The notes beneath the pieces are model-generated. The model searched no databases and was not told the DNA's origin. It saw only the letters and a program-made list of their open reading frames with translations. The position numbers were made by a program, and so were the translations under genes. A DNA stretch of 64,000 nt, taken from a virus. Where the stretch lies: IMG/VR virus record IMGVR_UViG_3300045988_127389, positions 58,908 to 122,907 of that record; one strand, written 5' to 3'. Each line of letters starts with the position of its first letter. Position 1 is the first letter of the stretch. Of the stretch, positions 4,332 to 43,809 are shown piece after piece.

Positions 4332-4709
4332 TCACTTTGGGAACTTCCCGGACTCAAGCATACGACCAAGTGTGAAATAAATACACATATATCCATCACA
4401 TGAAAGTGGAATAAAGTTGTTGTGGATTCTTACGGCAGCAATTTTGTCTCGATAAAAGATGCCATCAAGTATTCTATCTTTTTCCCAGCATTCACTAAAA
4501 ACATGGTTACGAACCAGTGAGGCATCATCGTTACTGAGATACCAAGGGCCATCATCTGTATATACAACAATTCCTTGTACACACTCGTCTTCGTCATCGT
4601 CAACGATTGTGTACAGAAATTCTTCACGATACGGCGTTGCCTTATATTCGTCAAGAGTTATCTGTCGTATCACAATGTCTCTTGGGTCAAAATTATCAAT
4701 AGACACCAT
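4332..4709 (-). CDS. hypothetical protein (125 aa)
   Basis: ORF in the minus-strand operon. Confidence 0.4.
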   Translation of the reverse strand: MVSIDNFDPRDIVIRQITLDEYKATPYREEFLYTIVDDDEDECVQGIVVYTDDGPWYLSNDDASLVRNHVFSECWEKDRILDGIFYRDKIAAVRIHNNFIPLSCDGYMCIYFTLGRMLESGKFPK

Positions 4710-4712
4710 AAG

Positions 4713-4901
4713 TTAATACACCTTATTTTTATCGAGACGGCTTACATCAGTAGGTGCAAACAAGCAATCCGCGTCAGTCTCCAAGTGATTTTTTGCCTTC
4801 ATCTGTGCTTCTTTTACAGTATCAGCGCAAACGATAACTCTTGTAGAATACTTCTTACACCCATCATCCATATTCCCACGAACAATATACCACTCGCCCA
4901 T
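4713..4901 (-). CDS. hypothetical protein (62 aa)
   Basis: Small ORF tightly packed against its neighbours. Confidence 0.3.
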   Translation of the reverse strand: MGEWYIVRGNMDDGCKKYSTRVIVCADTVKEAQMKAKNHLETDADCLFAPTDVSRLDKNKVY

Positions 4902-10855: not shown

Positions 10856-11539
10856 TCACCACCTTACTGGTTCTAAGCCATTCTCAATCAAAAACTCATT
10901 CGCTTTTGCAAAGTGACCATTCCCAAAGAAACCACGATTTGCACTTAGCGGTGACGGATGTGCAGATTCTAAGAATTTATGATTTTGATTTGTAATTAGA
11001 TTCTTTTTAGACCCTGCGTTCTTGCCCCATAATAAGTAAATGATGGGCTGGTCGTATTTTTCCAACTCTCTAATTGCGTCATCGGTCAGTATTTCCCAAC
11101 CCTGATTTGCGTGTGAAAGAGGTTCGTGTTTTCTAACTGTAAGAATTGTATTTAAGAGTAATACGCCCTGTTCTGCCCATCTTGTCAAGTCCTGCGACCA
11201 TTCACTACGCTCAACCGTTTCAGAATTAAGTTCCTTTTGAATATTTTTCAGTGAAGGAGGTGTTGGATAGACTCCATTTCTTACAGAGAATGACAACCCC
11301 ATAGCCTGTCCTTCACCGTGGTAACAATCCTGACCGATTATTACCACTTTTGTATTATGTATAGGCGTTAATTCAAACGCCTTAAAAATATCTTGCATCG
11401 GTGGATATACAGTTTTTGTTGCGTATTCTTGTATAAGAAATCTTTTTAGATTTTTATAAAACGGTTTTTGCTGCTCTATATCAAAGAACGATTGCCAATC
11501 GTTTCCAATGTTAATCATCGACATCCTCCATAATCCCAT
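10856..11539 (-). CDS. ung: uracil-DNA glycosylase (family 1)
   Basis: GQDCYH (GQDPYH-type) and HPSPLS motifs. Confidence 0.75.
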   Translation of the reverse strand: MGLWRMSMINIGNDWQSFFDIEQQKPFYKNLKRFLIQEYATKTVYPPMQDIFKAFELTPIHNTKVVIIGQDCYHGEGQAMGLSFSVRNGVYPTPPSLKNIQKELNSETVERSEWSQDLTRWAEQGVLLLNTILTVRKHEPLSHANQGWEILTDDAIRELEKYDQPIIYLLWGKNAGSKKNLITNQNHKFLESAHPSPLSANRGFFGNGHFAKANEFLIENGLEPVRW

Positions 11540-11723
11540 GACCTGTCTTTGTTTTAAATGCTTCGCAGATTGCGGAATGACGCTTTACAATATACTGATA
11601 TTCATTATCATAAGGACTTGTGAATTTAATCTGCCGAACTGAATTTCTAAACATGAAATACAATGTATCTTCTGATTCGTTTATTAAATCTAAAACAAGC
11701 TGACTGTATTCGTTATCACTCAT
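11511..11723 (-). CDS. hypothetical protein (70 aa)
   Basis: ORF. Confidence 0.3.
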   Translation of the reverse strand: MSDNEYSQLVLDLINESEDTLYFMFRNSVRQIKFTSPYDNEYQYIVKRHSAICEAFKTKTGHGIMEDVDD

Positions 11724-25986: not shown

Positions 25987-26061
25987 TGGAGCGTCATATT
26001 GGAGTCGAACCAATCTAAAAGAGATTTGCAGTCTCTCGCCTAGCCGTCTGGCGCATGACGC
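25987..26061 (-). tRNA. tRNA-Cys(GCA)
   Basis: Hand-folded cloverleaf. Anticodon loop is CTGCAAA, T-arm is GGTTCGACTCC, and CCA is encoded. Confidence 0.7.
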
Positions 26062-26187
26062 ACATTTGCAATTTAGGTTTTGCGAACCACACATCGAGCG
26101 TATACTCCGTTAAATCCCCTTGTGATACAATCACTCCGAGACGGTTTTGTAACACCGTATGCTCTATTTTGTTCATCTTTACGGTCG

Positions 26188-26278
26188 TGGCGTGGTAGAA
26201 GGGATTTGAACCCCTGCACGGTATACGCCGCCTACTTGCTTTCCAAGCAAGCCCCTTCAACCTCTTGGGTACTACCAC
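26188..26278 (-). tRNA. tRNA-Ser(GGA), long variable arm
   Basis: 91 nt. Acceptor GTGGTAG pairs with CTACCAC, anticodon loop is TTGGAAA, CCA is encoded. Confidence 0.65.
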
Positions 26279-26402
26279 ATATTATGCCTTGATTACTAAA
26301 GGCATAACGCGAGTATCGTTGCATCCAGCGGTTTCATACCTAGTGAATACACGATATTTTCTATCGGATTTCAAAATATCTTTATAATACTTCAAAAATA
26401 AG

Positions 26403-26479
26403 TGGTGTTTCCAGAATGAATTGAACATTCGACCTCAATCTTATCAGGATTGCGCTCTAACCAACTGAGCTATGGAAAC
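26403..26479 (-). tRNA. tRNA-Ile(GAT)
   Basis: Canonical D-arm AGCTCAGTTGGTTAGAGC, anticodon loop CTGATAA, CCA encoded. Confidence 0.7.
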
Positions 26480-26480
26480 A

Positions 26481-26506
26481 TAAATTGCTGTCTTTCCAGC
26501 AGTCAT
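26481..26506. repeat. 26-nt direct repeat TAAATTGCTGTCTTTCCAGCAGTCAT (copy 1) immediately 5' of tRNA-Ile
   Basis: Identical copy at 28121-28146, 5' of tRNA-Arg(ACG). Contains the hairpin TGCTG-N6-CAGCA. Confidence 0.6.
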
Positions 26507-26627
26507 CGGTTTATCCGCGATGTGCTTGTTCCTTAACACAAACACGGCATACTGTCATATCACGTATTTACTATATTTTTTACGAATACCAGCTACAATA
26601 GTCGCAACTCGAAAACTACTTACCGCG

Positions 26628-26704
26628 TGGTGCGCCCGAAGAGATTTGAACTCCCGACCCATCGCTTAAAAGGCGATTGCTCTAACCAACTGAGCTACGA
26701 ACGC
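26628..26704 (-). tRNA. tRNA-Lys(TTT)
   Basis: Anticodon loop CTTTTAA, T-arm GAGTTCAAATCTC, CCA encoded. Confidence 0.7.
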
Positions 26705-26842
26705 AAATGAAAGCACGAATACCCGCCCACGTGCATGGTACTTGCTCTTCTGTCTTGTCAGTACCTCCCAAGTCCATTAACTCTATGGACACGGTAGTTA
26801 AAATACTTGCCTATACCTATTCTACCACGGCATAGGTGCGAT

Positions 26843-26918
26843 TGGAGCCACCTGTAGGAATCAAACCTACGACGTATGCGGTACGAACGCATCATTCTAT
26901 CTACTGAATTAAAGTGGC
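26843..26918 (-). tRNA. tRNA-Thr(CGT)
   Basis: Anticodon loop TTCGTAC, CCA encoded. Confidence 0.6.
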
Positions 26919-26919
26919 A

Positions 26920-27007
26920 TGGAGCCAGTGACAGGACTTGAACCTGCGAGAACCCTTTCGGCATCGGGATTACAAAACCCGCGTTCTACCAACTGAACTA
27001 CACTGGC
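26920..27007 (-). tRNA. type-II tRNA (long variable arm), anticodon region ambiguous (TGT or GTA)
   Basis: 88 nt with good acceptor, D and T arms. The anticodon stem closes with a T.T mismatch and the loop can be read as 9 nt (TTTTGTAAT). Confidence 0.45.
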
Positions 27008-27124
27008 AAATCTAAAAGACACATTAAAAATTGAATAACACATAGATGGATAATCGGACGAATACTTTTACTCAAGTTTTAATATAAATGGCTGGATGTG
27101 TCTTTGCATATATAAAAAGGAGGG

Positions 27125-27346
27125 TTATTTTCTTACCTTCATATCTAACATGGTAAGCCTATCTTCACGCCTGAAAGAAATTATATCGTACCATTTTTCT
27201 AAGGTGTATTTTAGCTGTCTAAGCTCACTATCGGTGAACTTCTCGCGTTCATCTCTTAGATATAAAGTAACAATTCCATTTTCTTCGCCAATCTTTAGTC
27301 GGGAAATCTTGCTCATAATATTATCACTAGCAACTTCACCCAACAT
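27125..27346 (-). CDS. hypothetical small protein inside the tRNA cluster
   Basis: 73-aa ORF of charged, protein-like composition. Confidence 0.35.
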   Translation of the reverse strand: MLGEVASDNIMSKISRLKIGEENGIVTLYLRDEREKFTDSELRQLKYTLEKWYDIISFRREDRLTMLDMKVRK

Positions 27347-27417
27347 TTGAAAGAAAGCAATAGGGTCATTTTCAATCTACTGCATCTGATTCACGTCCCT
27401 TCTTTTTAGATTTCTAA

Positions 27418-27530
27418 TGGCTGCGTATGGAGTCGAACCATAAACATCGTCCTTATAATGGAAAAATGTGTAGCTGTTACTATCTAAAATAGATAGGCTT
27501 TACGCGCTCTGCCAATTGAGCTACACAGCC
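27418..27530 (-). ncRNA. tRNA-like RNA with ~37-nt internal insertion (113 nt)
   Basis: Perfect acceptor (GGCTGTG pairs with CGCAGCC, followed by ACCA), canonical D-arm and T-arm (GGTTCGACTCC). About 62 nt, including the hairpin CTATCTATTTTAGATAG, replaces the anticodon and variable arms. Confidence 0.45.
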
Positions 27531-27625
27531 ATAATGGTGAGTTTAAGGTCACTCAACCGCAAATTAAGTTTTTGTTTTGTCCACAGCAGGACTGACAGGA
27601 CTTGTTTAGCTTATAAACTGTCGTA

Positions 27626-27701
27626 TGGTGCGAAATACAAGACTCGAACTTGTAACTTCTACCTTGTAAAAGTAGCACTCTTCCAGTTGAGTTAATCTCG
27701 C
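27626..27701 (-). tRNA. tRNA-Val(TAC)
   Basis: Anticodon loop TTTACAA, CCA encoded. Confidence 0.6.
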
Positions 27702-27832
27702 ATAATAAATACAGTAGTCGGGGTCGAACCGACATCTTCGCCTTGGCTTTTAAGAAAAATAATTGCGGCTTATGTCTGTATAGACACATTCTTATTTTGG
27801 CGATGTTTTACCATTGAAACCATACCGTATTC

Positions 27833-27918
27833 TGGTGTGCATGGTGGGACTTGAACCCACAATGTCTTTCGACACTGCCATCTCAAAGCAGCTCCTATGC
27901 CAATTCGGATACACGCAC
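27833..27918 (-). tRNA. tRNA-Leu(GAG), long variable arm
   Basis: Anticodon loop TTGAGAT, variable-arm hairpin TGTCGAAAGACA, CCA encoded. Confidence 0.6.
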
Positions 27919-28040
27919 ATATAAATGTCGGCTTACGCACTCTCATGAGTTAGCATCGTCACCGATAATCAGGGATACTGTCATAACAGTCACCCATAAA
28001 AGGCTTCCCTTTGTCCAGCGTAATTTGAGACTCATTTATC

Positions 28041-28117
28041 TGGTACGGCAGACAAGACTTGAACTCGCAACCTATCGGTTCGTAGCCGATTGTTCTATCC
28101 AATTGAACTACTGCCGC
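28041..28117 (-). tRNA. tRNA-Arg(ACG)
   Basis: Anticodon loop CTACGAA, CCA encoded. Confidence 0.7.
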
Positions 28118-28120
28118 ATA

Positions 28121-28146
28121 TAAATTGCTGTCTTTCCAGCAGTCAT
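28121..28146. repeat. 26-nt direct repeat (copy 2) immediately 5' of tRNA-Arg(ACG)
   Basis: Exact match to 26481-26506. Confidence 0.6.
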
Positions 28147-28256
28147 TGTTAGCCTATCCAACAATTCCCGGACTTTTATAGCTATACGCTGTTATCCAAA
28201 CCGAAAAATGGGTATTATTATGTCAGTAAGATATTGTTTTGGTAATTAGCTAAAAA

Positions 28257-28898
28257 TTATACATCACTCCACTCGCCATCTGTATATTTCTTAATGTCAG
28301 ATGTACGATATGGAAGATTATATCTTTTACACCAATTTCTAATACAGTTATCTGAAACTCCACATATAGATGCGATATGCTTAAATGGCATATTTCTAAT
28401 CATGGATTTAAGCGTGTCTCTATCTATCATATTCGGATTTGCCGTTTCTTCATATTGCTTCAAGTTTCTACACCTTAAACATCTCACAGCCCTATCCGAT
28501 ATGGCACATCCGCAATCAACACATCTATTATATGCTTTTTCATATACATTTTGTTGTTCTTCTATCACATTACGAACATCTGCTCCAACAATTTTATCAA
28601 AAGTAAAGTCATCAACAAATGTAGAAGCTGTAGTTTGATTGTTCTTTGCACGTTCTTTTCTAATCTTTATCTGAATCCTATTCCCTATGTAACTTGTTGG
28701 AATTATAACAGCAACATCCCATACATATATGTAAAATGCCATATAATCAACATCATTAACATATAATTCTCTATGCTTACTTTTTGTTAATGGATTTACT
28801 ATATTAGAACATGGACAGCTTATCGAACCATCAACTATTTGTTGATTGCAGAACTTTATCTGTATCTTATTCAGCTTTCCATTAAATTCCGCTATCAT
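28257..28898 (-). CDS. putative homing-endonuclease-like DNA-binding protein (C-terminal HTH, central Cys4 cluster)
   Basis: 213-aa ORF inserted in the tRNA array. The C-terminal segment (...ICGVSDNCIRNWCKRYNL) resembles the HTH of phage homing endonucleases. A CVDCGC...CLRCRN zinc finger is also present. Confidence 0.35.
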   Translation of the reverse strand: MIAEFNGKLNKIQIKFCNQQIVDGSISCPCSNIVNPLTKSKHRELYVNDVDYMAFYIYVWDVAVIIPTSYIGNRIQIKIRKERAKNNQTTASTFVDDFTFDKIVGADVRNVIEEQQNVYEKAYNRCVDCGCAISDRAVRCLRCRNLKQYEETANPNMIDRDTLKSMIRNMPFKHIASICGVSDNCIRNWCKRYNLPYRTSDIKKYTDGEWSDV

Positions 28899-29026
28899 AT
28901 CATAGCGTTCATTATCGCCGTAAGGTATTGAAACTGGTATTCCTCTCTAAACAAATTCATATAAAATACGCGACTCTGCAATATTGCCTTTCATCTTTGA
29001 ATTTACCATATTCATACCCCATTTAT

Positions 29027-37780: not shown

Positions 37781-39043
37781 TTAATTACAGTTGGCAGTAT
37801 ATCTAGCATCTTCACCAGCGCCAAGATAACGAGAAACAAAATTCGGTAACGATGCAAAATTTTCAGAGATAACGTTTGCGAAATCAATTACACCAGTCAC
37901 GCTTTCACGTCCATCCATAATATAATGAATTTTCTTATTATCGCACTGGTCAACAGCGTTGATGACAAACGATAAGTTGAAGTCTCCTTCAACAAATTGT
38001 GTCACGCTCAGGTCACGCATAACGCGACCAACAAACCTATCAACGTCAAACATAGCATATCTGATGCTACCTTGCCATTCGTTGTGTACGTTTGTATTAT
38101 CAATAATTTTTGTGCTTAGATTATTTACATCAGTCTCACCCGGAAGAATACCAGCACCATGTCGAGTTGTATACCAACGTGTAGTATAACAAATCTCAAT
38201 GTCGAACTCGTCCATACTCTTTACATCGAAACCATCTAAAACATTAAAATCTGAACTGAGTCCGGTATATGTCGGAGTCGTATTCTCGCCCTGCTCGTAG
38301 TATTTCTGCGAAATTGCAAGCCCCTGCGCATTTTCAAGCACAATCCGCTTATATTTTGCGCTAAGTTCAGTTTTAGTGAACTTTTTTACCGTAACGTGTT
38401 TGATAAAGAAAGCTAAGTCGCTCAAGAAAGACAACACATAATCTTTCTCAAAATTGTTGATGAACTGCTCCGGGATGTCACGGCCATCAAGAACCTCATG
38501 TAAACGCGCAGGAACGTAATCCATACAAATAATATCCAACTTTTCTGCAATCGGAATCCAATCGTTTTCTTCGTTTGCTTTCTGAATTTCTCTTACAGTA
38601 ATTGCATATTTTGGCTCTCTACTACGAATAATAGCTTCATAAACGCCAAGACCACAAGAACCGAAACGACCATCTCCAAGCGCAGTTTCCCAACACTGGT
38701 TAATTAAAGCGTCCCAAGGCGTAGCAATGAAACAGTTTTCATCAACATATACATTCGGAGTAAAACCAAGTTCACGCAGTTCATCCCACTCCGTAGAAAA
38801 TACCATAGGATTTACCTGAAAAATTTCACTGATAATAGTATCAGCACCGTTCATAGTTCCAGAACCGAAATGATGAAAAATGTGACGCTTATCTCCCTTT
38901 ACAACAGTATGACCTCGCTGTGCTCCTCCATTTGTGAGCACGACCGCCATATCGCCGTTCTTGCATTCACGAGTAAAGTAGTCAACAGTTCTACCTTTCC
39001 CCTCGTCACCATACTGTGCGCCAATCACAATCTTAATGTCCAT
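37781..39043 (-). CDS. adenylosuccinate synthetase homologue (PurA/PurZ family)
   Basis: GAQYGDEGKGR P-loop and NGGAQRGHTV segment match PurA. The start is trimmed to the Met downstream of the promoter at 39078-39106, which has an AGGAGGG RBS. Confidence 0.7.
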   Translation of the reverse strand: MDIKIVIGAQYGDEGKGRTVDYFTRECKNGDMAVVLTNGGAQRGHTVVKGDKRHIFHHFGSGTMNGADTIISEIFQVNPMVFSTEWDELRELGFTPNVYVDENCFIATPWDALINQCWETALGDGRFGSCGLGVYEAIIRSREPKYAITVREIQKANEENDWIPIAEKLDIICMDYVPARLHEVLDGRDIPEQFINNFEKDYVLSFLSDLAFFIKHVTVKKFTKTELSAKYKRIVLENAQGLAISQKYYEQGENTTPTYTGLSSDFNVLDGFDVKSMDEFDIEICYTTRWYTTRHGAGILPGETDVNNLSTKIIDNTNVHNEWQGSIRYAMFDVDRFVGRVMRDLSVTQFVEGDFNLSFVINAVDQCDNKKIHYIMDGRESVTGVIDFANVISENFASLPNFVSRYLGAGEDARYTANCN

Positions 39044-39077
39044 ATAAACCCTCCTGTCAAGCATCTTTGACATCATT

Positions 39078-39106
39078 ATTATATCATAGACGCTAGGAAA
39101 AGTCAA
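39078..39106 (-). promoter_or_regulatory. sigma70-type consensus promoter upstream of PurA/PurZ-like gene
   Basis: AAACCCCTTGACT-17-TATAAT. Confidence 0.6.
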
Positions 39107-39123
39107 GGGGTTTTGCAAAATAA

Positions 39124-39148
39124 AAAGCGTGGATTTCTCCACGCTAAA
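39124..39148 (-). terminator. terminator hairpin (GCGTGGATTTCTCCACGC)
   Basis: The same hairpin recurs at 63785-63802, each time with a T-run on the minus strand. Confidence 0.5.
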
Positions 39149-41231: not shown

Positions 41232-42038
41232 TTACTCTTTTGCCTTATCGCAATTTTGGTCAAAATCACGGTACAGGATGTACTTCTTTACGACACCATT
41301 AGCAAATGAAATAGCATCAAACCAATTAGGAACACTTGGCTCATCTTTTGTCGGTGGTTCAATGATTTTAGTTTTATCAAAAAACTGCCCACTATCAAGA
41401 ACGCCGCTCTTTACATTGCCGATAAAACATCTTTCAGACAAATCGGCAATGTAAAATTCTGGGCACGCTTTTAGCCGTGCATTATCTTTGTTCATAAGCT
41501 GATTATAGAGATTCTTTAATCGCAACGCTTCATACATCCGCTTCGACTGTCTTTTCACCTCATCGTCTGCACAAGAGTTTCTTTCATAGTCATTTAAGAT
41601 ATTGTGAATAGCACCATATACTGCGTTCTGATAGTGCCACAAATACCTTTCGTAAATTTCCTGTCTGACATTATAAAAATCCCTAAAAGAGTCATCCACA
41701 ATAACATAATCAGAAAATAGTGCTTCAAGATTAACAAAACTGCCCTTTGCCAGCTGTTTTGCGAAATCACGAATATCCATCAGTTTTACCTGACCATCAT
41801 CATAGGTATCAGGTGAAAACTCTGTTGATGTCAATGTCTTTACTTCCGTCTTACCACTAATTAACCCATCAAGTGAAGGCATAGTAGCCATTACGCAATC
41901 AATGTCCGAATCGCTATCATCAAGGCCATAATTCTGACTACCAAACAACCCGACAAAAGCTACCTTGCATTTTCTATTTAGTTCAATATATTCTTTTCTA
42001 AACTTTAATTTCGCTAAGATTCTCTGGTGTTTACCCAT
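41232..42038 (-). CDS. Pol-beta superfamily nucleotidyltransferase
   Basis: GLFGSQNYGLDDSDSDID matches the GS...G...SDxD NTase signature. Confidence 0.55.
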   Translation of the reverse strand: MGKHQRILAKLKFRKEYIELNRKCKVAFVGLFGSQNYGLDDSDSDIDCVMATMPSLDGLISGKTEVKTLTSTEFSPDTYDDGQVKLMDIRDFAKQLAKGSFVNLEALFSDYVIVDDSFRDFYNVRQEIYERYLWHYQNAVYGAIHNILNDYERNSCADDEVKRQSKRMYEALRLKNLYNQLMNKDNARLKACPEFYIADLSERCFIGNVKSGVLDSGQFFDKTKIIEPPTKDEPSVPNWFDAISFANGVVKKYILYRDFDQNCDKAKE

Positions 42039-42687: not shown

Positions 42688-43809
42688 TTATTCGTCATGC
42701 TTCATCATATACTTACGGCTAACATTCTTAAAAGAGCGCTGACCGTCAAGACTACGATAAACCCAACCTTCACGCAAGCCAGTGCCAACAATACACTCAC
42801 CATCAGCATCCAGCTTTAAAGTCTCCATATCATCGGGTAAGATATAATGCTCATCTGCGATAGGAACCCAATCAATTCCATTAGCATTACAAATCTTCTT
42901 TGCATCCAAAGAATTGATACGCCCAACGTCAGAACGAATCAAATTGTAACCAAAGAAACGTACTTCACCATACTTGTGAGGATTACCCTGAAGATTAGGG
43001 CCAGCGGTTTCACCCTGCAATGCCGCATACTTTAGGTTATTATCCTTGATGTAACGCTTCAAGAACTCATCAATATGATACTTGTCGTTCATATCCCAGT
43101 ATACATTGGATTCAGAATTTCCACCCTTGTTATGCCAAGTGAACTGCTTACGGTCAAGCTGACGTACATTACGAGAACATACATAATACTCCCAACGACC
43201 AAACGGCTTCTTTTCCATGATATACGTAGAAGAAGTTCCGTCAATCTTCTGTGTCTTAATCCAAGGCTCTTTGTCCTTCAGAATAAATGGCATATTCTCA
43301 ACGCGCTCTTCATCCGACTTCTTTACGTATTCAAACTTAGTAGGGAACTTGCGAGGATTAGTTACCTTCTTTCCAGTAAAGAAATTCTTAACACGCTCAA
43401 AGAAAGTCAATTTCTTTTCAACCACATCCGACTTACGAGCATTATCCTCTTCGACAGAATAGCGAATCTTCAAAATATCAGTAACATCGTCACCGATATT
43501 TGCGTCCTTTAATTCGTCAAATGCACTCACAGGCATAATCAAGCCCTGAGAGTATACCTTACACATCTTAATGCACTTAACCTTATAGTCACGCTTTGCC
43601 ATAAAAGCAAACCGAGGGTCATCTGCATTTACCTTAGAGTCAACCTCAAAATAAACACACTTATCTCCGGGCTTAAACTGGTCAGCCTTGGAAACAATGA
43701 TACCCCATCCCCCTACTCTAGCGTACTCTACCCTATCATATCCCTGTAACGGTTCGATATCATCAATCTTAGTTACGTATGCTAATGCACGTTTACCGTT
43801 AATAATCAT
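42688..43809 (-). CDS. ATP-dependent RNA ligase-like nucleotidyltransferase (KxDG family) with N-terminal extension
   Basis: Motif I QKIDGTS, motif III GETAG, motif IV EGWVYR, motif V FKNVSRK. The roughly 180-aa N-terminal domain is as in Rnl5/DraRnl-type RNA ligases. Confidence 0.5.
   Translation of the reverse strand: MIINGKRALAYVTKIDDIEPLQGYDRVEYARVGGWGIIVSKADQFKPGDKCVYFEVDSKVNADDPRFAFMAKRDYKVKCIKMCKVYSQGLIMPVSAFDELKDANIGDDVTDILKIRYSVEEDNARKSDVVEKKLTFFERVKNFFTGKKVTNPRKFPTKFEYVKKSDEERVENMPFILKDKEPWIKTQKIDGTSSTYIMEKKPFGRWEYYVCSRNVRQLDRKQFTWHNKGGNSESNVYWDMNDKYHIDEFLKRYIKDNNLKYAALQGETAGPNLQGNPHKYGEVRFFGYNLIRSDVGRINSLDAKKICNANGIDWVPIADEHYILPDDMETLKLDADGECIVGTGLREGWVYRSLDGQRSFKNVSRKYMMKHDE

What the first reader, a model, noticed from the sequence alone, without database searches (positions are those of the whole stretch)
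27418..27530. 113-nt tRNA-like RNA with a ~37-nt insertion replacing the anticodon arm
Acceptor stem, D-arm and T-arm are canonical and ACCA is encoded. Between D- and T-arms lie about 62 nt including a perfect 7-bp hairpin (CTATCTA-TTT-TAGATAG) instead of an anticodon stem-loop. It is too short for a group I intron. Candidates are a tRNA-like decoy, a Y-RNA-like RNA, or a small-intron-containing tRNA.
Basis: seen in the sequence. Interest (0 to 1): 0.55.

Follow-up and report, generated by a model that had tools for sequence, protein, structure and literature searches.

The report
tRNA-shaped Y RNA of phage Ro60
This 113-nt gene is a phage tRNA carrying a conserved 40-nt module in its anticodon stem, and it belongs to a widespread, unannotated family of tRNA-shaped RNAs encoded next to a phage Ro60-like protein, so it is most likely that protein's "Y RNA" partner and not an ordinary or intron-containing tRNA.

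Summary
On the minus strand, 27418..27530 has canonical acceptor, D and T arms (Rfam tRNA 42.9 bits) and a 40-nt insert (27462..27501) between tRNA positions 29 and 30. The anticodon arm is split, not replaced: removing the insert gives CGUCC-AUUAUAA-GGACG (anticodon UAU). CCA is not encoded in this window. The insert is a conserved module: an A-rich spacer, a 7-bp hairpin, UAA, the core CAGCUA, then a U-rich spacer. The same module sits at the same place in tRNA bodies of many unrelated phages, with full covariation of the hairpin and the split stem. It is tightly linked to a DUF2828-vWA gene (window 32815..34314), whose predicted fold matches Ro60. From an RNA-pattern search, 46 of 46 testable hits have that gene 191-298 nt downstream. 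The same core follows the terminal stem of a mycobacteriophage YrlA-type Y RNA, and t1 is a circular permutation of that RNA. The window holds at least three more core-bearing RNAs. Best reading: a tRNA-topology Y RNA-like partner of a phage Ro60-like protein inside an RNA-repair gene island. Whether the module is ever excised to release tRNA-Ile(UAU) remains open. This is a new variant of a known kind.

The parts
27418..27530 (-). t1: 113-nt tRNA-shaped RNA (the finding). Acceptor 27524..27530 / 27419..27425, D arm 27506..27521, positions 27-29 CGU 27502..27504, insert 27462..27501, CC-AUUAUAA-GG-ACG 27448..27461, variable loop 27443..27447, T arm 27426..27442, A73 27418.
   Evidence: Rfam tRNA 42.9 bits; structural scanner; excision enumeration; 10-genome conservation.
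27462..27501 (-). 40-nt module inserted between tRNA positions 29 and 30 (boundary ambiguous by one U): AAAGC | hairpin | UAA | CAGCUA | CACAUUUUU.
   Evidence: The only perfect excision solution. Nucleotide diversity 0.014 against 0.12-0.13 in the spacers. Same architecture in 22 family members.
27480..27496 (-). Module hairpin CUAUCUA-UUU-UAGAUAG (7 bp).
   Evidence: The equivalent hairpin has at least 5 different covarying stem sequences across the family.
27471..27476 (-). Invariant core CAGCUA (CAGCAA in most relatives), 3 nt after the hairpin.
   Evidence: The same core follows the terminal stem of the Rose5 YrlA-like RNA and of three LP-048 stem-loops.
27709..27829 (-). t2: second module-bearing tRNA-shaped RNA. 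Stem UCGCC/GGCGA closes a 56-nt loop holding hairpin UGUGUCU-AUAC-AGACAUA (27771..27788) and core CCGCAA (27763..27768). No U33 is possible.
   Evidence: Three double-sided compensatory pairs, 99.1% of cells paired.
29295..29379 (-). Y3: 85-nt Y-like RNA. 7-bp terminal stem AGACGCA/UGCGUCU, UA, core CAGCAA, then a T arm.
   Evidence: (weak tRNA hit, 22.9 bits). Two changes among 5 genomes.
29141..29258 (-). Y4: 118-nt Y-like RNA. 8-bp terminal stem UAGACACG/CGUGUCUA, AA, core CAGCUA, enclosing D, anticodon-like and T arms.
   Evidence: (partial tRNA, 52 bits). Compensatory changes in the D and anticodon-like stems; 6-nt loop in relatives.
32815..34314 (-). Ro60-like protein gene (499 aa; Pfam DUF2828 + DUF7788/vWA; phrog_850 'RNA-binding protein').
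   Evidence: AlphaFold2 model pLDDT 87, pTM 0.88. Foldseek top full-length hits are Ro60 1yvr/2i91/1yvp, the TROVE domain 9kop and phage phiLo Ro60 9l5y.
34319..34360 (-). Leader stem-loop of the Ro60-like gene: AGAUAC-AAU-CAGCAA-...AAAGGA-GUAUCU, with the Shine-Dalgarno sequence inside; the start codon is at 34314.
   Evidence: sequence reading. A role in autoregulation is inference.
36863..37774 (-). P-loop kinase (AAA_33) + HD phosphohydrolase: candidate RNA end-healing enzyme of the same island.
41232..42038 (-). RlaP-family nucleotidyltransferase (RNA-repair associated).
42688..43809 (-). RNA ligase (PF09414 + PHA02142 OB domain).
29729..30571 (-). Thg1-like 3'-5' polymerase (tRNA 5'-end repair) inside the tRNA cluster.

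Best explanation
t1 is a tRNA-derived non-coding RNA that keeps true tRNA topology: an open acceptor stem, D arm, T arm and a split anticodon arm. It carries a self-contained 40-nt module (A/U closing helix, 7-bp hairpin, single-stranded UAA-CAGCUA) as a side arm of the anticodon stem. That module is the recognition element for the phage's Ro60-like protein (DUF2828-vWA, 32815..34314). t1, together with t2, Y3 and Y4, therefore acts as a Y RNA: it binds the Ro60-like ring through the module and presents a tRNA-shaped domain to tRNA-handling enzymes. These could be the phage's own RNA ligase, kinase-HD, RlaP and Thg1-like enzymes, or host nucleases such as PNPase. The function would be tRNA repair or RNA quality control during infection.

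Shown: the anatomy; purifying selection on the module; covariation of the split stem and the hairpin; near-perfect genomic linkage to the Ro60-like gene; the Ro60 fold of the protein; and the shared core and circular-permutation relationship with a YrlA-type phage Y RNA.

Inferred: physical binding of the module by the protein; the unspliced RNA being the functional form; and the downstream effector.
For: (1) The module is under selection. Nucleotide diversity is 0.014 in the t1 insert and 0.047 in the t2 insert, against 0.117-0.131 in flanking spacers across 10 genomes.
(2) Family: 22 distinct t1-type members from unrelated phages share the order spacer, hairpin, 1-3 nt, CAGC(A/U)A, spacer at positions 29/30. 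Pairs 27-29/41-43 are paired in 66/66 cells, all 3 positions show double-sided changes (CGU/ACG, ACG/CGU, GUA/UAC, AUG/CAU), and shuffles average 52% paired. The hairpin has at least 5 stem sequences, some with G.U pairs, so it is RNA on this strand.
(3) Linkage: hairpin + core is about 25-fold enriched in the 500 nt upstream of the Ro60-like gene on the same strand (51 hits in 62 loci against about 2 expected). Reciprocally, 46/46 tRNA-context pattern hits have the gene 191-298 nt downstream, against 1/65 chance hits.
(4) The protein has the Ro60/TROVE fold. Mycobacteriophage homologues are annotated 'Ro-like RNA binding protein'.
(5) In mycobacteriophage Rose5 the RNA hit by Rfam YrlA (36.4 bits, E about 1e-4) has UAG-CAGCAAUUA right after the 5' strand of its terminal stem, and permuted t1 matches it module by module. 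Listeria phage LP-048 has three stem-loops with UAACAGCAAUUACUA upstream of its homologue. In the related phage CKA15, three very highly transcribed regions lie upstream of the Rsr-like gene (PMC12282133).
(7) Several members cannot decode: t2 and L133 have A33, L098/L102 have an 8-nt loop, and Y4 relatives have a 6-nt loop. The core, by contrast, is invariant.
(8) The core also sits in a stem-loop over the Ro60-like gene's ribosome-binding site.
Against: No binding or expression data exist for this phage. In the window, t1 is 5.3 kb from the Ro60-like gene, not adjacent as in the large subfamily. Most members restore a perfect 5-bp stem and 7-nt loop with U33 and R37, with different anticodons (UAU, UAC, UGU, GGU, UUC, CAG). 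A pure protein-binding scaffold would not obviously need this, and it fits a spliced tRNA. The canonical Y RNA motif GNCGAA is absent. The Ro60 similarity is structural only (TM 0.5-0.6, about 11% identity; no sequence hit). The core also abuts ordinary tRNAs, so it could be a more general processing signal.
Confidence: 0.6

Rival explanations
1. Intron-containing tRNA. The 40-nt module is an intervening sequence that is cut out and the halves are rejoined, by an unidentified endonuclease plus the phage kinase-HD and RNA ligase, possibly guided by the Ro60-like protein. This yields a functional 73-nt tRNA-Ile(UAU) that reads AUA codons.
For: There is a single perfect excision solution for t1, and about 2% of shuffled inserts allow one. 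Most family members likewise restore a canonical arm with U33/R37 and diverse anticodons, and the insertion point varies from 26/27 to 31/32 but is always 5' of the anticodon. Spliced t1 is most similar to the only tRNA-Ile(UAU) among 106 tRNAs in related loci. t1 is the only AUA decoder in the cluster. Healing and sealing enzymes are encoded nearby. Relatives encode CCA.
Against: There is no BHB motif compatible with the junctions. There is no group I or ribozyme signal in Rfam at E up to 10, and 40 nt is too small for self-splicing. No splicing endonuclease was found in the window. The insert is as conserved as the exons, which is unlike passively removed tRNA introns. t2, L133, L098/L102 and L110b cannot give a canonical loop. 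The same module occurs in RNAs with no tRNA to restore, such as Y3, the LP-048 stem-loops and the Rose5 YrlA-like RNA. No uninterrupted allele was found in three collections.
Confidence: 0.2
2. Decoy or shield against host tRNA-targeting defence. The RNA displays a tRNA body and anticodon loop to host anticodon nucleases, or titrates them, with or without the Ro60-like protein.
For: The element sits among tRNA-repair genes that are typical counter-measures to anticodon nucleases (PMC7824862 section 3.4.9). A canonical loop is retained in many members.
Against: The anticodons differ widely between phages, so no single nuclease target is implied. Some members lack a canonical loop. The invariant part is the module, not the loop. 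This is compatible with the main explanation as a sub-function and is not a separate mechanism.
Confidence: 0.1
3. DNA-level element or dead gene. The insert is a scar, an operator or promoter, or a protection against the homing endonuclease active in this cluster, and the RNA has no function.
For: A PD-(D/E)XK endonuclease gene has replaced the 3' half of tRNA-Phe from position 32 onwards in this very cluster. The hairpin is a DNA palindrome.
Against: The stems covary instead of keeping a conserved palindrome sequence, and they contain G.U pairs that exist only in RNA of this strand. t2 shows three compensatory stem changes. Promoter and terminator scans are at chance level. The module lies downstream of strong sigma-70-type promoters in L083 and LP-048, so it is transcribed. 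The hairpin is not repeated elsewhere in the window.
Confidence: 0.04

Closest known systems
YrlA-type bacterial/phage Y RNAs (Rfam RF02553; Chen et al. 2014, PMC4201824)
   Same: Both are a tRNA-like domain (D arm, T arm, acceptor helix) joined to a Ro-binding module consisting of a helix followed by a short conserved single-stranded motif. Both are encoded on the same strand near a Ro60-type gene, often with several Y-like RNAs per locus and with RNA-repair genes nearby. The mycobacteriophage Rose5 YrlA-like RNA carries the same CAGCAAUUA core.
   Different: The topology is a circular permutation. YrlA has its ends in the Ro-binding stem and a closed acceptor hairpin. t1 has open acceptor ends (with CCA in relatives), and its module is closed by a hairpin loop inside the anticodon stem. 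t1 keeps a canonical anticodon loop. Its motif is CAGCWA, not GNCGAAN0-1G. The Rfam YrlA model does not hit t1.
Thermus phage phiLo Ro60 with Yrl1/Yrl2 (PMC12135203)
   Same: A phage-encoded Ro60-fold protein with its RNA partners encoded immediately upstream on the same strand. In that system, binding was shown experimentally and an RNP with host PNPase was proposed.
   Different: The phiLo Yrl RNAs are classical stem / internal-bulge (CGAA) / stem RNAs without tRNA topology. The protein here belongs to Pfam DUF2828, not TROVE, and resembles phiLo Ro60 only in structure.
Intron-containing tRNAs (bacterial group I introns; archaeal BHB introns at non-canonical sites such as 29/30)
   Same: An intervening sequence interrupts the anticodon arm, and in-silico removal restores a perfect tRNA. 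Default tRNA finders miss the gene.
   Different: 40 nt is far too small for a group I intron and there is no Rfam hit. No BHB motif fits the junctions. The host is bacterial. The insert sequence is highly conserved and is shared with non-tRNA RNAs.
T4 stable RNAs species 1 and 2 (rnaC/rnaD) in the T4 tRNA cluster (from my own knowledge; not examined here)
   Same: They are tRNA-cluster-encoded stable small RNAs with partial tRNA features and unknown function.
   Different: They have no known Ro60-like partner or CAGCWA module. This comparison was not tested.

Membership tests
tRNA (Rfam RF00005) | Acceptor, D and T arms with conserved tertiary nucleotides; score above the gathering threshold | tested here: met
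   42.9 bits against a gathering score of 29, model positions 1-71. The structural scanner finds a 7/7 acceptor stem, 4/4 D stem and 5/5 T stem.
tRNA (Rfam RF00005) | Contiguous 5-bp anticodon stem with a 7-nt loop | tested here: not met
   cmscan places 51 nt where the model has 11. The arm is contiguous only after 40 nt are removed.
tRNA (functional decoder) | Mature ~73-76-nt aminoacylated species used in translation | not testable with these tools
   This needs RNA-seq or a Northern blot and a charging assay.
Group I intron in tRNA | P1-P9 catalytic core, usually more than 200 nt | tested here: not met
   The insert is 40 nt. There is no Intron_gpI hit at E up to 10.
Archaeal-type BHB tRNA intron | Two 3-nt bulges separated by a 4-bp helix at the splice sites | tested here: not met
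   Enumerating all BHB-compatible pairings gives none with junctions at 28/29-29/30 and 68/69. The BHB geometry used comes from my own knowledge of the motif.
YrlA Y RNA (RF02553; PMC4201824) | Encoded near (about 4 kb or less) a Ro60 orthologue and on the same strand | tested here: inconclusive
   The strand is the same but the distance in the window is 5.3 kb. In the sister subfamily, 46/46 are 191-298 nt upstream of the gene.
YrlA Y RNA (RF02553; PMC4201824) | tRNA-like domain with D and T arms and an acceptor helix | tested here: met
YrlA Y RNA (RF02553; PMC4201824) | GNCGAAN0-1G motif next to the Ro-binding stem | tested here: not met
   The motif is absent from t1. In t2 it occurs only in some variants, so it is a chance match. 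A different core, CAGCWA, occupies the equivalent place.
YrlA Y RNA (RF02553; PMC4201824) | 5' and 3' ends form the Ro-binding stem; the acceptor is closed by a loop | tested here: not met
   t1 has the opposite, non-permuted topology. Y3 and Y4 in the same window do have a terminal stem + core.
YrlA Y RNA (RF02553; PMC4201824) | Hit to the Rfam covariance model | tested here: not met
   No YrlA hit on t1 at E up to 10. Rose5 is hit at 36.4 bits, below the gathering score of 69.
Ro60/TROVE protein (the partner gene 32815..34314) | HEAT-repeat ring plus a C-terminal vWA domain (Ro60 fold) | tested here: met
   AlphaFold2 model pLDDT 87, pTM 0.88. The only full-length Foldseek hits are Ro60/TROVE entries, E 3.6e-7 to 1.4e-5, TM 0.41-0.59.
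Ro60/TROVE protein (the partner gene 32815..34314) | Sequence-level membership (Pfam TROVE; similarity to solved Ro60 structures) | tested here: not met
   Pfam assigns DUF2828 + DUF7788, with vWA below threshold. phmmer against the PDB finds no Ro60.
Ro60-Y RNA RNP | Physical binding of the RNA by the protein | not testable with these tools
   Only genomic linkage and motif sharing were shown.

The most novel reading that the evidence does not exclude
The module is a protein-dependent tRNA intron of bacteriophages. The Ro60-like protein recognises the hairpin-CAGCWA module, a nuclease removes it, and the phage's kinase-HD and RNA ligase reseal the anticodon stem. Phage tRNAs would thus be made as inactive, nuclease-resistant precursors and activated by an RNA-repair-type splicing pathway. 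This would be a bacterial-world analogue of enzymatic tRNA splicing, and also the evolutionary source of permuted YrlA Y RNAs.
Probability: 0.15. Interest if true: 0.9.

Novelty: new variant of a known kind. Interest (0 to 1): 0.68.

Why it matters
Ro60-Y RNA particles are conserved from bacteria to humans, but their bacterial and phage functions and the origin of Y RNAs are poorly understood. This work has three consequences.

1. The large DUF2828-vWA family has a predicted Ro60 fold. It has more than 7,200 proteins and about 710 cultured phage genomes, including Felix O1-like, P100-like, Staphylococcus and mycobacteriophages.
2. A simple RNA signature, a helix followed by 1-3 nt and then CAGCWA(UU), marks the RNA partners of this family.
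3. One partner class is a true-topology tRNA with the module grafted into its anticodon stem, which is the circular permutation of YrlA. This gives a concrete intermediate for the proposed descent of Y RNAs from tRNAs.

It also explains "odd", "intron-containing" or "tRNA-OTHER" calls in many phage tRNA clusters. The system can be tested directly in well-studied model phages.

Tried and rejected
- ARAGORN's intron solution, 'tRNA-Glu(UUC), 34-nt intron', was rejected. It has a mismatched stem and a 13-nt variable loop, and ARAGORN accepts almost any deletion variant.
- BHB intron: rejected.
- Group I intron, ribozyme, CRISPR repeat or known sRNA: no Rfam hit.
- Promoter or terminator inside the insert: at chance level.
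- Insert as a genome-wide repeat or mobile element within the window: single copy.
- Search for an uninterrupted allele: IMG/VR and metagenomes returned only interrupted copies. The one genome hit is a chance match inside a GC-rich coding gene.
- GNCGAA Y RNA motif: absent or not conserved.
- A candidate stand-alone module at ~27190..27245: rejected. It lies in a conserved small ORF, varies like coding sequence, and loses both hairpin and core in relatives.
- MAFFT alignment of the family (A5) put the insert out of register, so a structural parse was used instead. In one search the 100% pairing of the insert hairpin, D stem and 30-31/39-40 is partly by construction, because the parser selects paired arms. 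The acceptor, T stem and 27-29/41-43 figures are positional and unbiased.
- Literature searches for short inserts in phage tRNAs and for DUF2828 found nothing relevant.

Full report
**1. What is there**

The element is on the minus strand at 27418..27530, inside a cluster of 13 or more minus-strand tRNA genes (25987..31179). Read 5'->3' it is:

GGCUGUG-UA-GCUC-AAUUGGCA-GAGC-G-CGU-[40 nt]-CC-AUUAUAA-GG-ACG-AUGUU-UAUGG-UUCGACU-CCAUA-CGCAGCC-A.

Default ARAGORN and default Rfam filters miss it. With sensitive filters the Rfam tRNA model scores 42.9 bits (gathering score 29) and spans 51 nt where the model expects 11. A strict scanner for acceptor + D + T arms with an oversized middle finds only this element, a second one (t2, 27709..27829) and their homologues. 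It finds none in 59 more distant loci and none in shuffled sequence.

The anticodon arm is split, not replaced. Enumerating all excisions gives one perfect solution. Removing 40 nt (27462..27501, boundary ambiguous by one U) between positions 29 and 30 yields CGUCC-AUUAUAA-GGACG, with U33, anticodon UAU and A37. About 2% of shuffled inserts allow any perfect solution.

**2. It is a selected RNA, not a decaying gene**

The genome is an uncultured phage, probably of a gut Firmicute. Its DnaE polymerase is 59% identical to that of a human-faecal phage and about 42% to those of Clostridioides and Bacillus phages. Nine related contigs carry both t1 and t2.

Across a 1-kb alignment of ten genomes, nucleotide diversity is as follows:
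- intergenic spacers: 0.117-0.131
- t1 insert: 0.014
- t1 exons: 0.009-0.039
- t2 insert: 0.047, with most changes in the hairpin loop

t2 shows a double-sided compensatory change in each of its acceptor, anticodon and T stems, with 99.1% of cells paired, and the signal disappears when pairing partners are slid. No uninterrupted allele was found in IMG/VR, in metagenomes or in GTDB genomes.

**3. Known kinds of intron do not fit**

The insert is far too small for a group I intron, and no ribozyme or intron family is hit at E up to 10. No bulge-helix-bulge motif is compatible with the junctions. Promoter and terminator scans are at chance level. The insert is single-copy in the window.

**4. 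Gene context**

The cluster lies in an RNA-repair island:
- Thg1-like enzyme, 29729..30571
- P-loop kinase + HD domain, 36863..37774
- RlaP nucleotidyltransferase, 41232..42038
- RNA ligase, 42688..43809
- a 499-aa DUF2828 + vWA protein, 32815..34314

An AlphaFold2 model of the DUF2828 + vWA protein (pLDDT 87, pTM 0.88) has Ro60, the TROVE domain and the Ro60 of Thermus phage phiLo as its only full-length structural matches (E 3.6e-7 to 1.4e-5). There is no sequence-level hit. The family is large: more than 7,200 proteins and about 710 cultured phage records. Mycobacteriophage members are annotated 'Ro-like RNA binding protein'.

**5. The insert is a module shared by a large RNA family linked to that protein**

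In loci fetched through the protein, the gene immediately upstream is very often a 113-123-nt 'intron-containing tRNA'. A structural parse of 22 distinct t1-type members gives one architecture: after position 29 comes an A-rich spacer, a 7-8-bp hairpin, a 1-3-nt linker, the core CAGC(A/U)A, a U-rich spacer, and then positions 30-31 and the rest of the arm. The two spacers can pair (for example AAGAAUG/CAUUCUU in L143). The insert is therefore a small stem / internal loop / hairpin domain.

Covariation:
- Pairs 27-29/41-43 are paired in 66/66 cells and occur as four different complementary triplets. Shuffles average 52% paired, with a maximum of 68%.
- The acceptor stem is paired in 154/154 cells, and all seven positions covary.
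- The hairpin has at least five stem sequences, including G.U pairs. Its 100% pairing is partly by construction of the parser.
- The core is invariant: CAGCAA in 17 members and CAGCUA in 5.

Linkage:
- Hairpin + core is about 25-fold enriched in the 500 nt upstream of the Ro60-like gene on its strand: 51 hits in 62 distinct loci against about 2 expected.
- Starting from the RNA instead (pattern ACAGCWA...CCATTAYAAGG in IMG/VR), 50 hits lie in a tRNA context and 46 of these have enough downstream sequence to test. All 46 have the Ro60-like gene 191-298 nt downstream on the same strand.
- Among 65 chance hits outside a tRNA context, only 1 has the gene anywhere in its locus.

**6. Relation to known Y RNAs**

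Bacterial and phage YrlA RNAs are tRNA mimics encoded next to Ro60 genes. Their ends form the Ro-binding stem, which carries a GNCGAA motif, and their acceptor is a closed hairpin (PMC4201824). [quoted passage not shown]

- In mycobacteriophage Rose5, the gap after the Ro-like gene contains an Rfam YrlA hit (36.4 bits, E about 1e-4). Its sequence is GGACUC-UAG-CAGCAAUUA...T arm...closed acceptor...D arm...GAGUCC. The t1 core thus sits exactly where YrlA has its Ro-binding motif.
- Opening t1 at its hairpin loop and closing it at the acceptor reproduces the Rose5 order module by module. t1 is therefore a circular permutation of a YrlA-type RNA.
- Listeria phage LP-048 has three tandem stem-loops of the form [7-nt strand]-UAACAGCAAUUACUA-...-[complement] upstream of its homologue, with HD and RtcB genes downstream.
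- In the related phage CKA15, three very highly transcribed regions lie upstream of the Rsr-like gene, and the authors suggested they may be Y RNAs (PMC12282133).
- Felixounavirus REP7 has an annotated 131-nt 'tRNA-Thr(GGT)' that contains the module.

**7. More members in the window**

- Y3 (29295..29379) has a terminal stem, the core and a T arm.
- Y4 (29141..29258) has a terminal stem and core enclosing D, anticodon-like and T arms.
- Both are conserved, with compensatory changes in Y4.
- A stem-loop with the core covers the Shine-Dalgarno sequence of the Ro60-like gene (34319..34360). This suggests autoregulation, which is inference.
- Two exact copies of GGAAAGACAGCAAUUUAU abut the 5' ends of tRNA-Ile(GAU) and tRNA-Arg(ACG).

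**8. Interpretation**

The best-supported reading (confidence about 0.6) is that t1 is a tRNA-topology Y RNA-like partner of the phage Ro60-like protein, and that the 40-nt module is the protein's binding site.

The main rival (about 0.2) is that the module is excised to release tRNA-Ile(UAU). Most family members restore a perfect arm with U33/R37 and with varied anticodons, and the insertion point ranges from 26/27 to the loop. A pure scaffold does not obviously require this.

Against obligatory decoding:
- t2 and L133 have A33, L098/L102 have 8-nt loops, and Y4 relatives have 6-nt loops.
- The module is the invariant part.
- The same module occurs in RNAs with no tRNA to restore.

The two readings could both hold if the RNA is a Ro-bound precursor that is later processed. 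Only expression and binding experiments can decide.

**9. Novelty**

Phage Ro60-like proteins and YrlA-type RNAs are known. I found no description of the following in Rfam 15 or in the searchable literature:
- the tRNA-topology form with the module in the anticodon stem
- the CAGCWA signature
- its near-perfect linkage to the DUF2828 family

This is a new variant of a known kind.

Noticed in passing
window 28257..28898 (-) and 29026..29057 (-): A PD-(D/E)XK_5 + HTH endonuclease ORF has replaced the 3' half of tRNA-Phe(GAA) from position 32 onwards. The 5' half, up to the anticodon-stem 5' strand, remains just downstream of tRNA-Glu(CUC). Relatives L002-L004 have the intact tRNA-Phe and no ORF. 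This looks like intron-less homing at a tRNA anticodon site.
   Followed up: partly
window 29295..29379 (-) and 29141..29258 (-): Two further Y-like RNAs (Y3, Y4) with a 7-8-bp terminal stem followed by the CAGCWA core. Y4 encloses a nearly complete tRNA body. Both are conserved in relatives.
   Followed up: partly
window 34319..34360 (-): A stem-loop with the CAGCAA core covers the Shine-Dalgarno sequence of the Ro60-like gene. This may allow translational autoregulation.
   Followed up: no
window 26480..26497 (-) and 28120..28137 (-): Two exact 18-nt copies of GGAAAGACAGCAAUUUAU abut the 5' ends of tRNA-Ile(GAU) and tRNA-Arg(ACG); 0.13 copies would be expected by chance. So the core motif also occurs in the 5' leaders of ordinary tRNAs.
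   Followed up: partly
window 26920..27007 (-): tRNA-Thr(UGU) carries a 15-nt extra variable arm, which is unusual for a class I tRNA, and is almost invariant among relatives (diversity 0.005). tRNA-Lys(UUU) is 88 nt in L001/L004/L005 but 77 nt in the window.
   Followed up: no
window 27471..27479 (-) versus 27519..27527 (-): The t1 insert contains AGCUACACA, which is perfectly complementary to tRNA positions 4-12 (UGUGUAGCU). Five of the nine nt belong to the conserved core. This may allow an alternative fold or may be chance (about 1%).
   Followed up: no
window 37781..39142 (-): A 453-aa protein matches phrog_1211, an adenylosuccinate-synthetase-like family (E 5e-48). It lies near dUTPase-like, kinase-HD, ThyX and folate enzymes. 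It may be a PurZ-type enzyme, hinting at modified bases in the genome.
   Followed up: no
window 31227..32756 (-); L287 (Rose5) gene 48: An SPFH/band-7/flotillin-like gene lies directly downstream of the Ro60-like gene in the window, and a band-7-like gene also lies near the Ro-like gene of mycobacteriophage Rose5. This may be a conserved association.
   Followed up: no
L289 (Escherichia phage REP7) 4821..4951 and 4635..4720: The annotated 131-nt 'tRNA-Thr_GGT' contains the hairpin + UACAGCAAAACU module ahead of a UUUCU-CCGGUAA-AGAAA arm. A neighbouring 86-nt 'tRNA-OTHER' has a small insertion in its anticodon region. Felixounavirus tRNA annotations may need revisiting.
   Followed up: partly
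L083 9650..9735 and 11500..11570: In this unrelated phage, strong sigma-70-type promoters are followed about 20 nt later by long hairpins carrying UAACAGCUAUUAAA. Their stem sequences differ but remain complementary (AAGACAC/GUGUCUU versus AAGAUGC/GCAUCUU). These are simple Y-like RNAs flanking the Ro60-like gene.
   Followed up: partly
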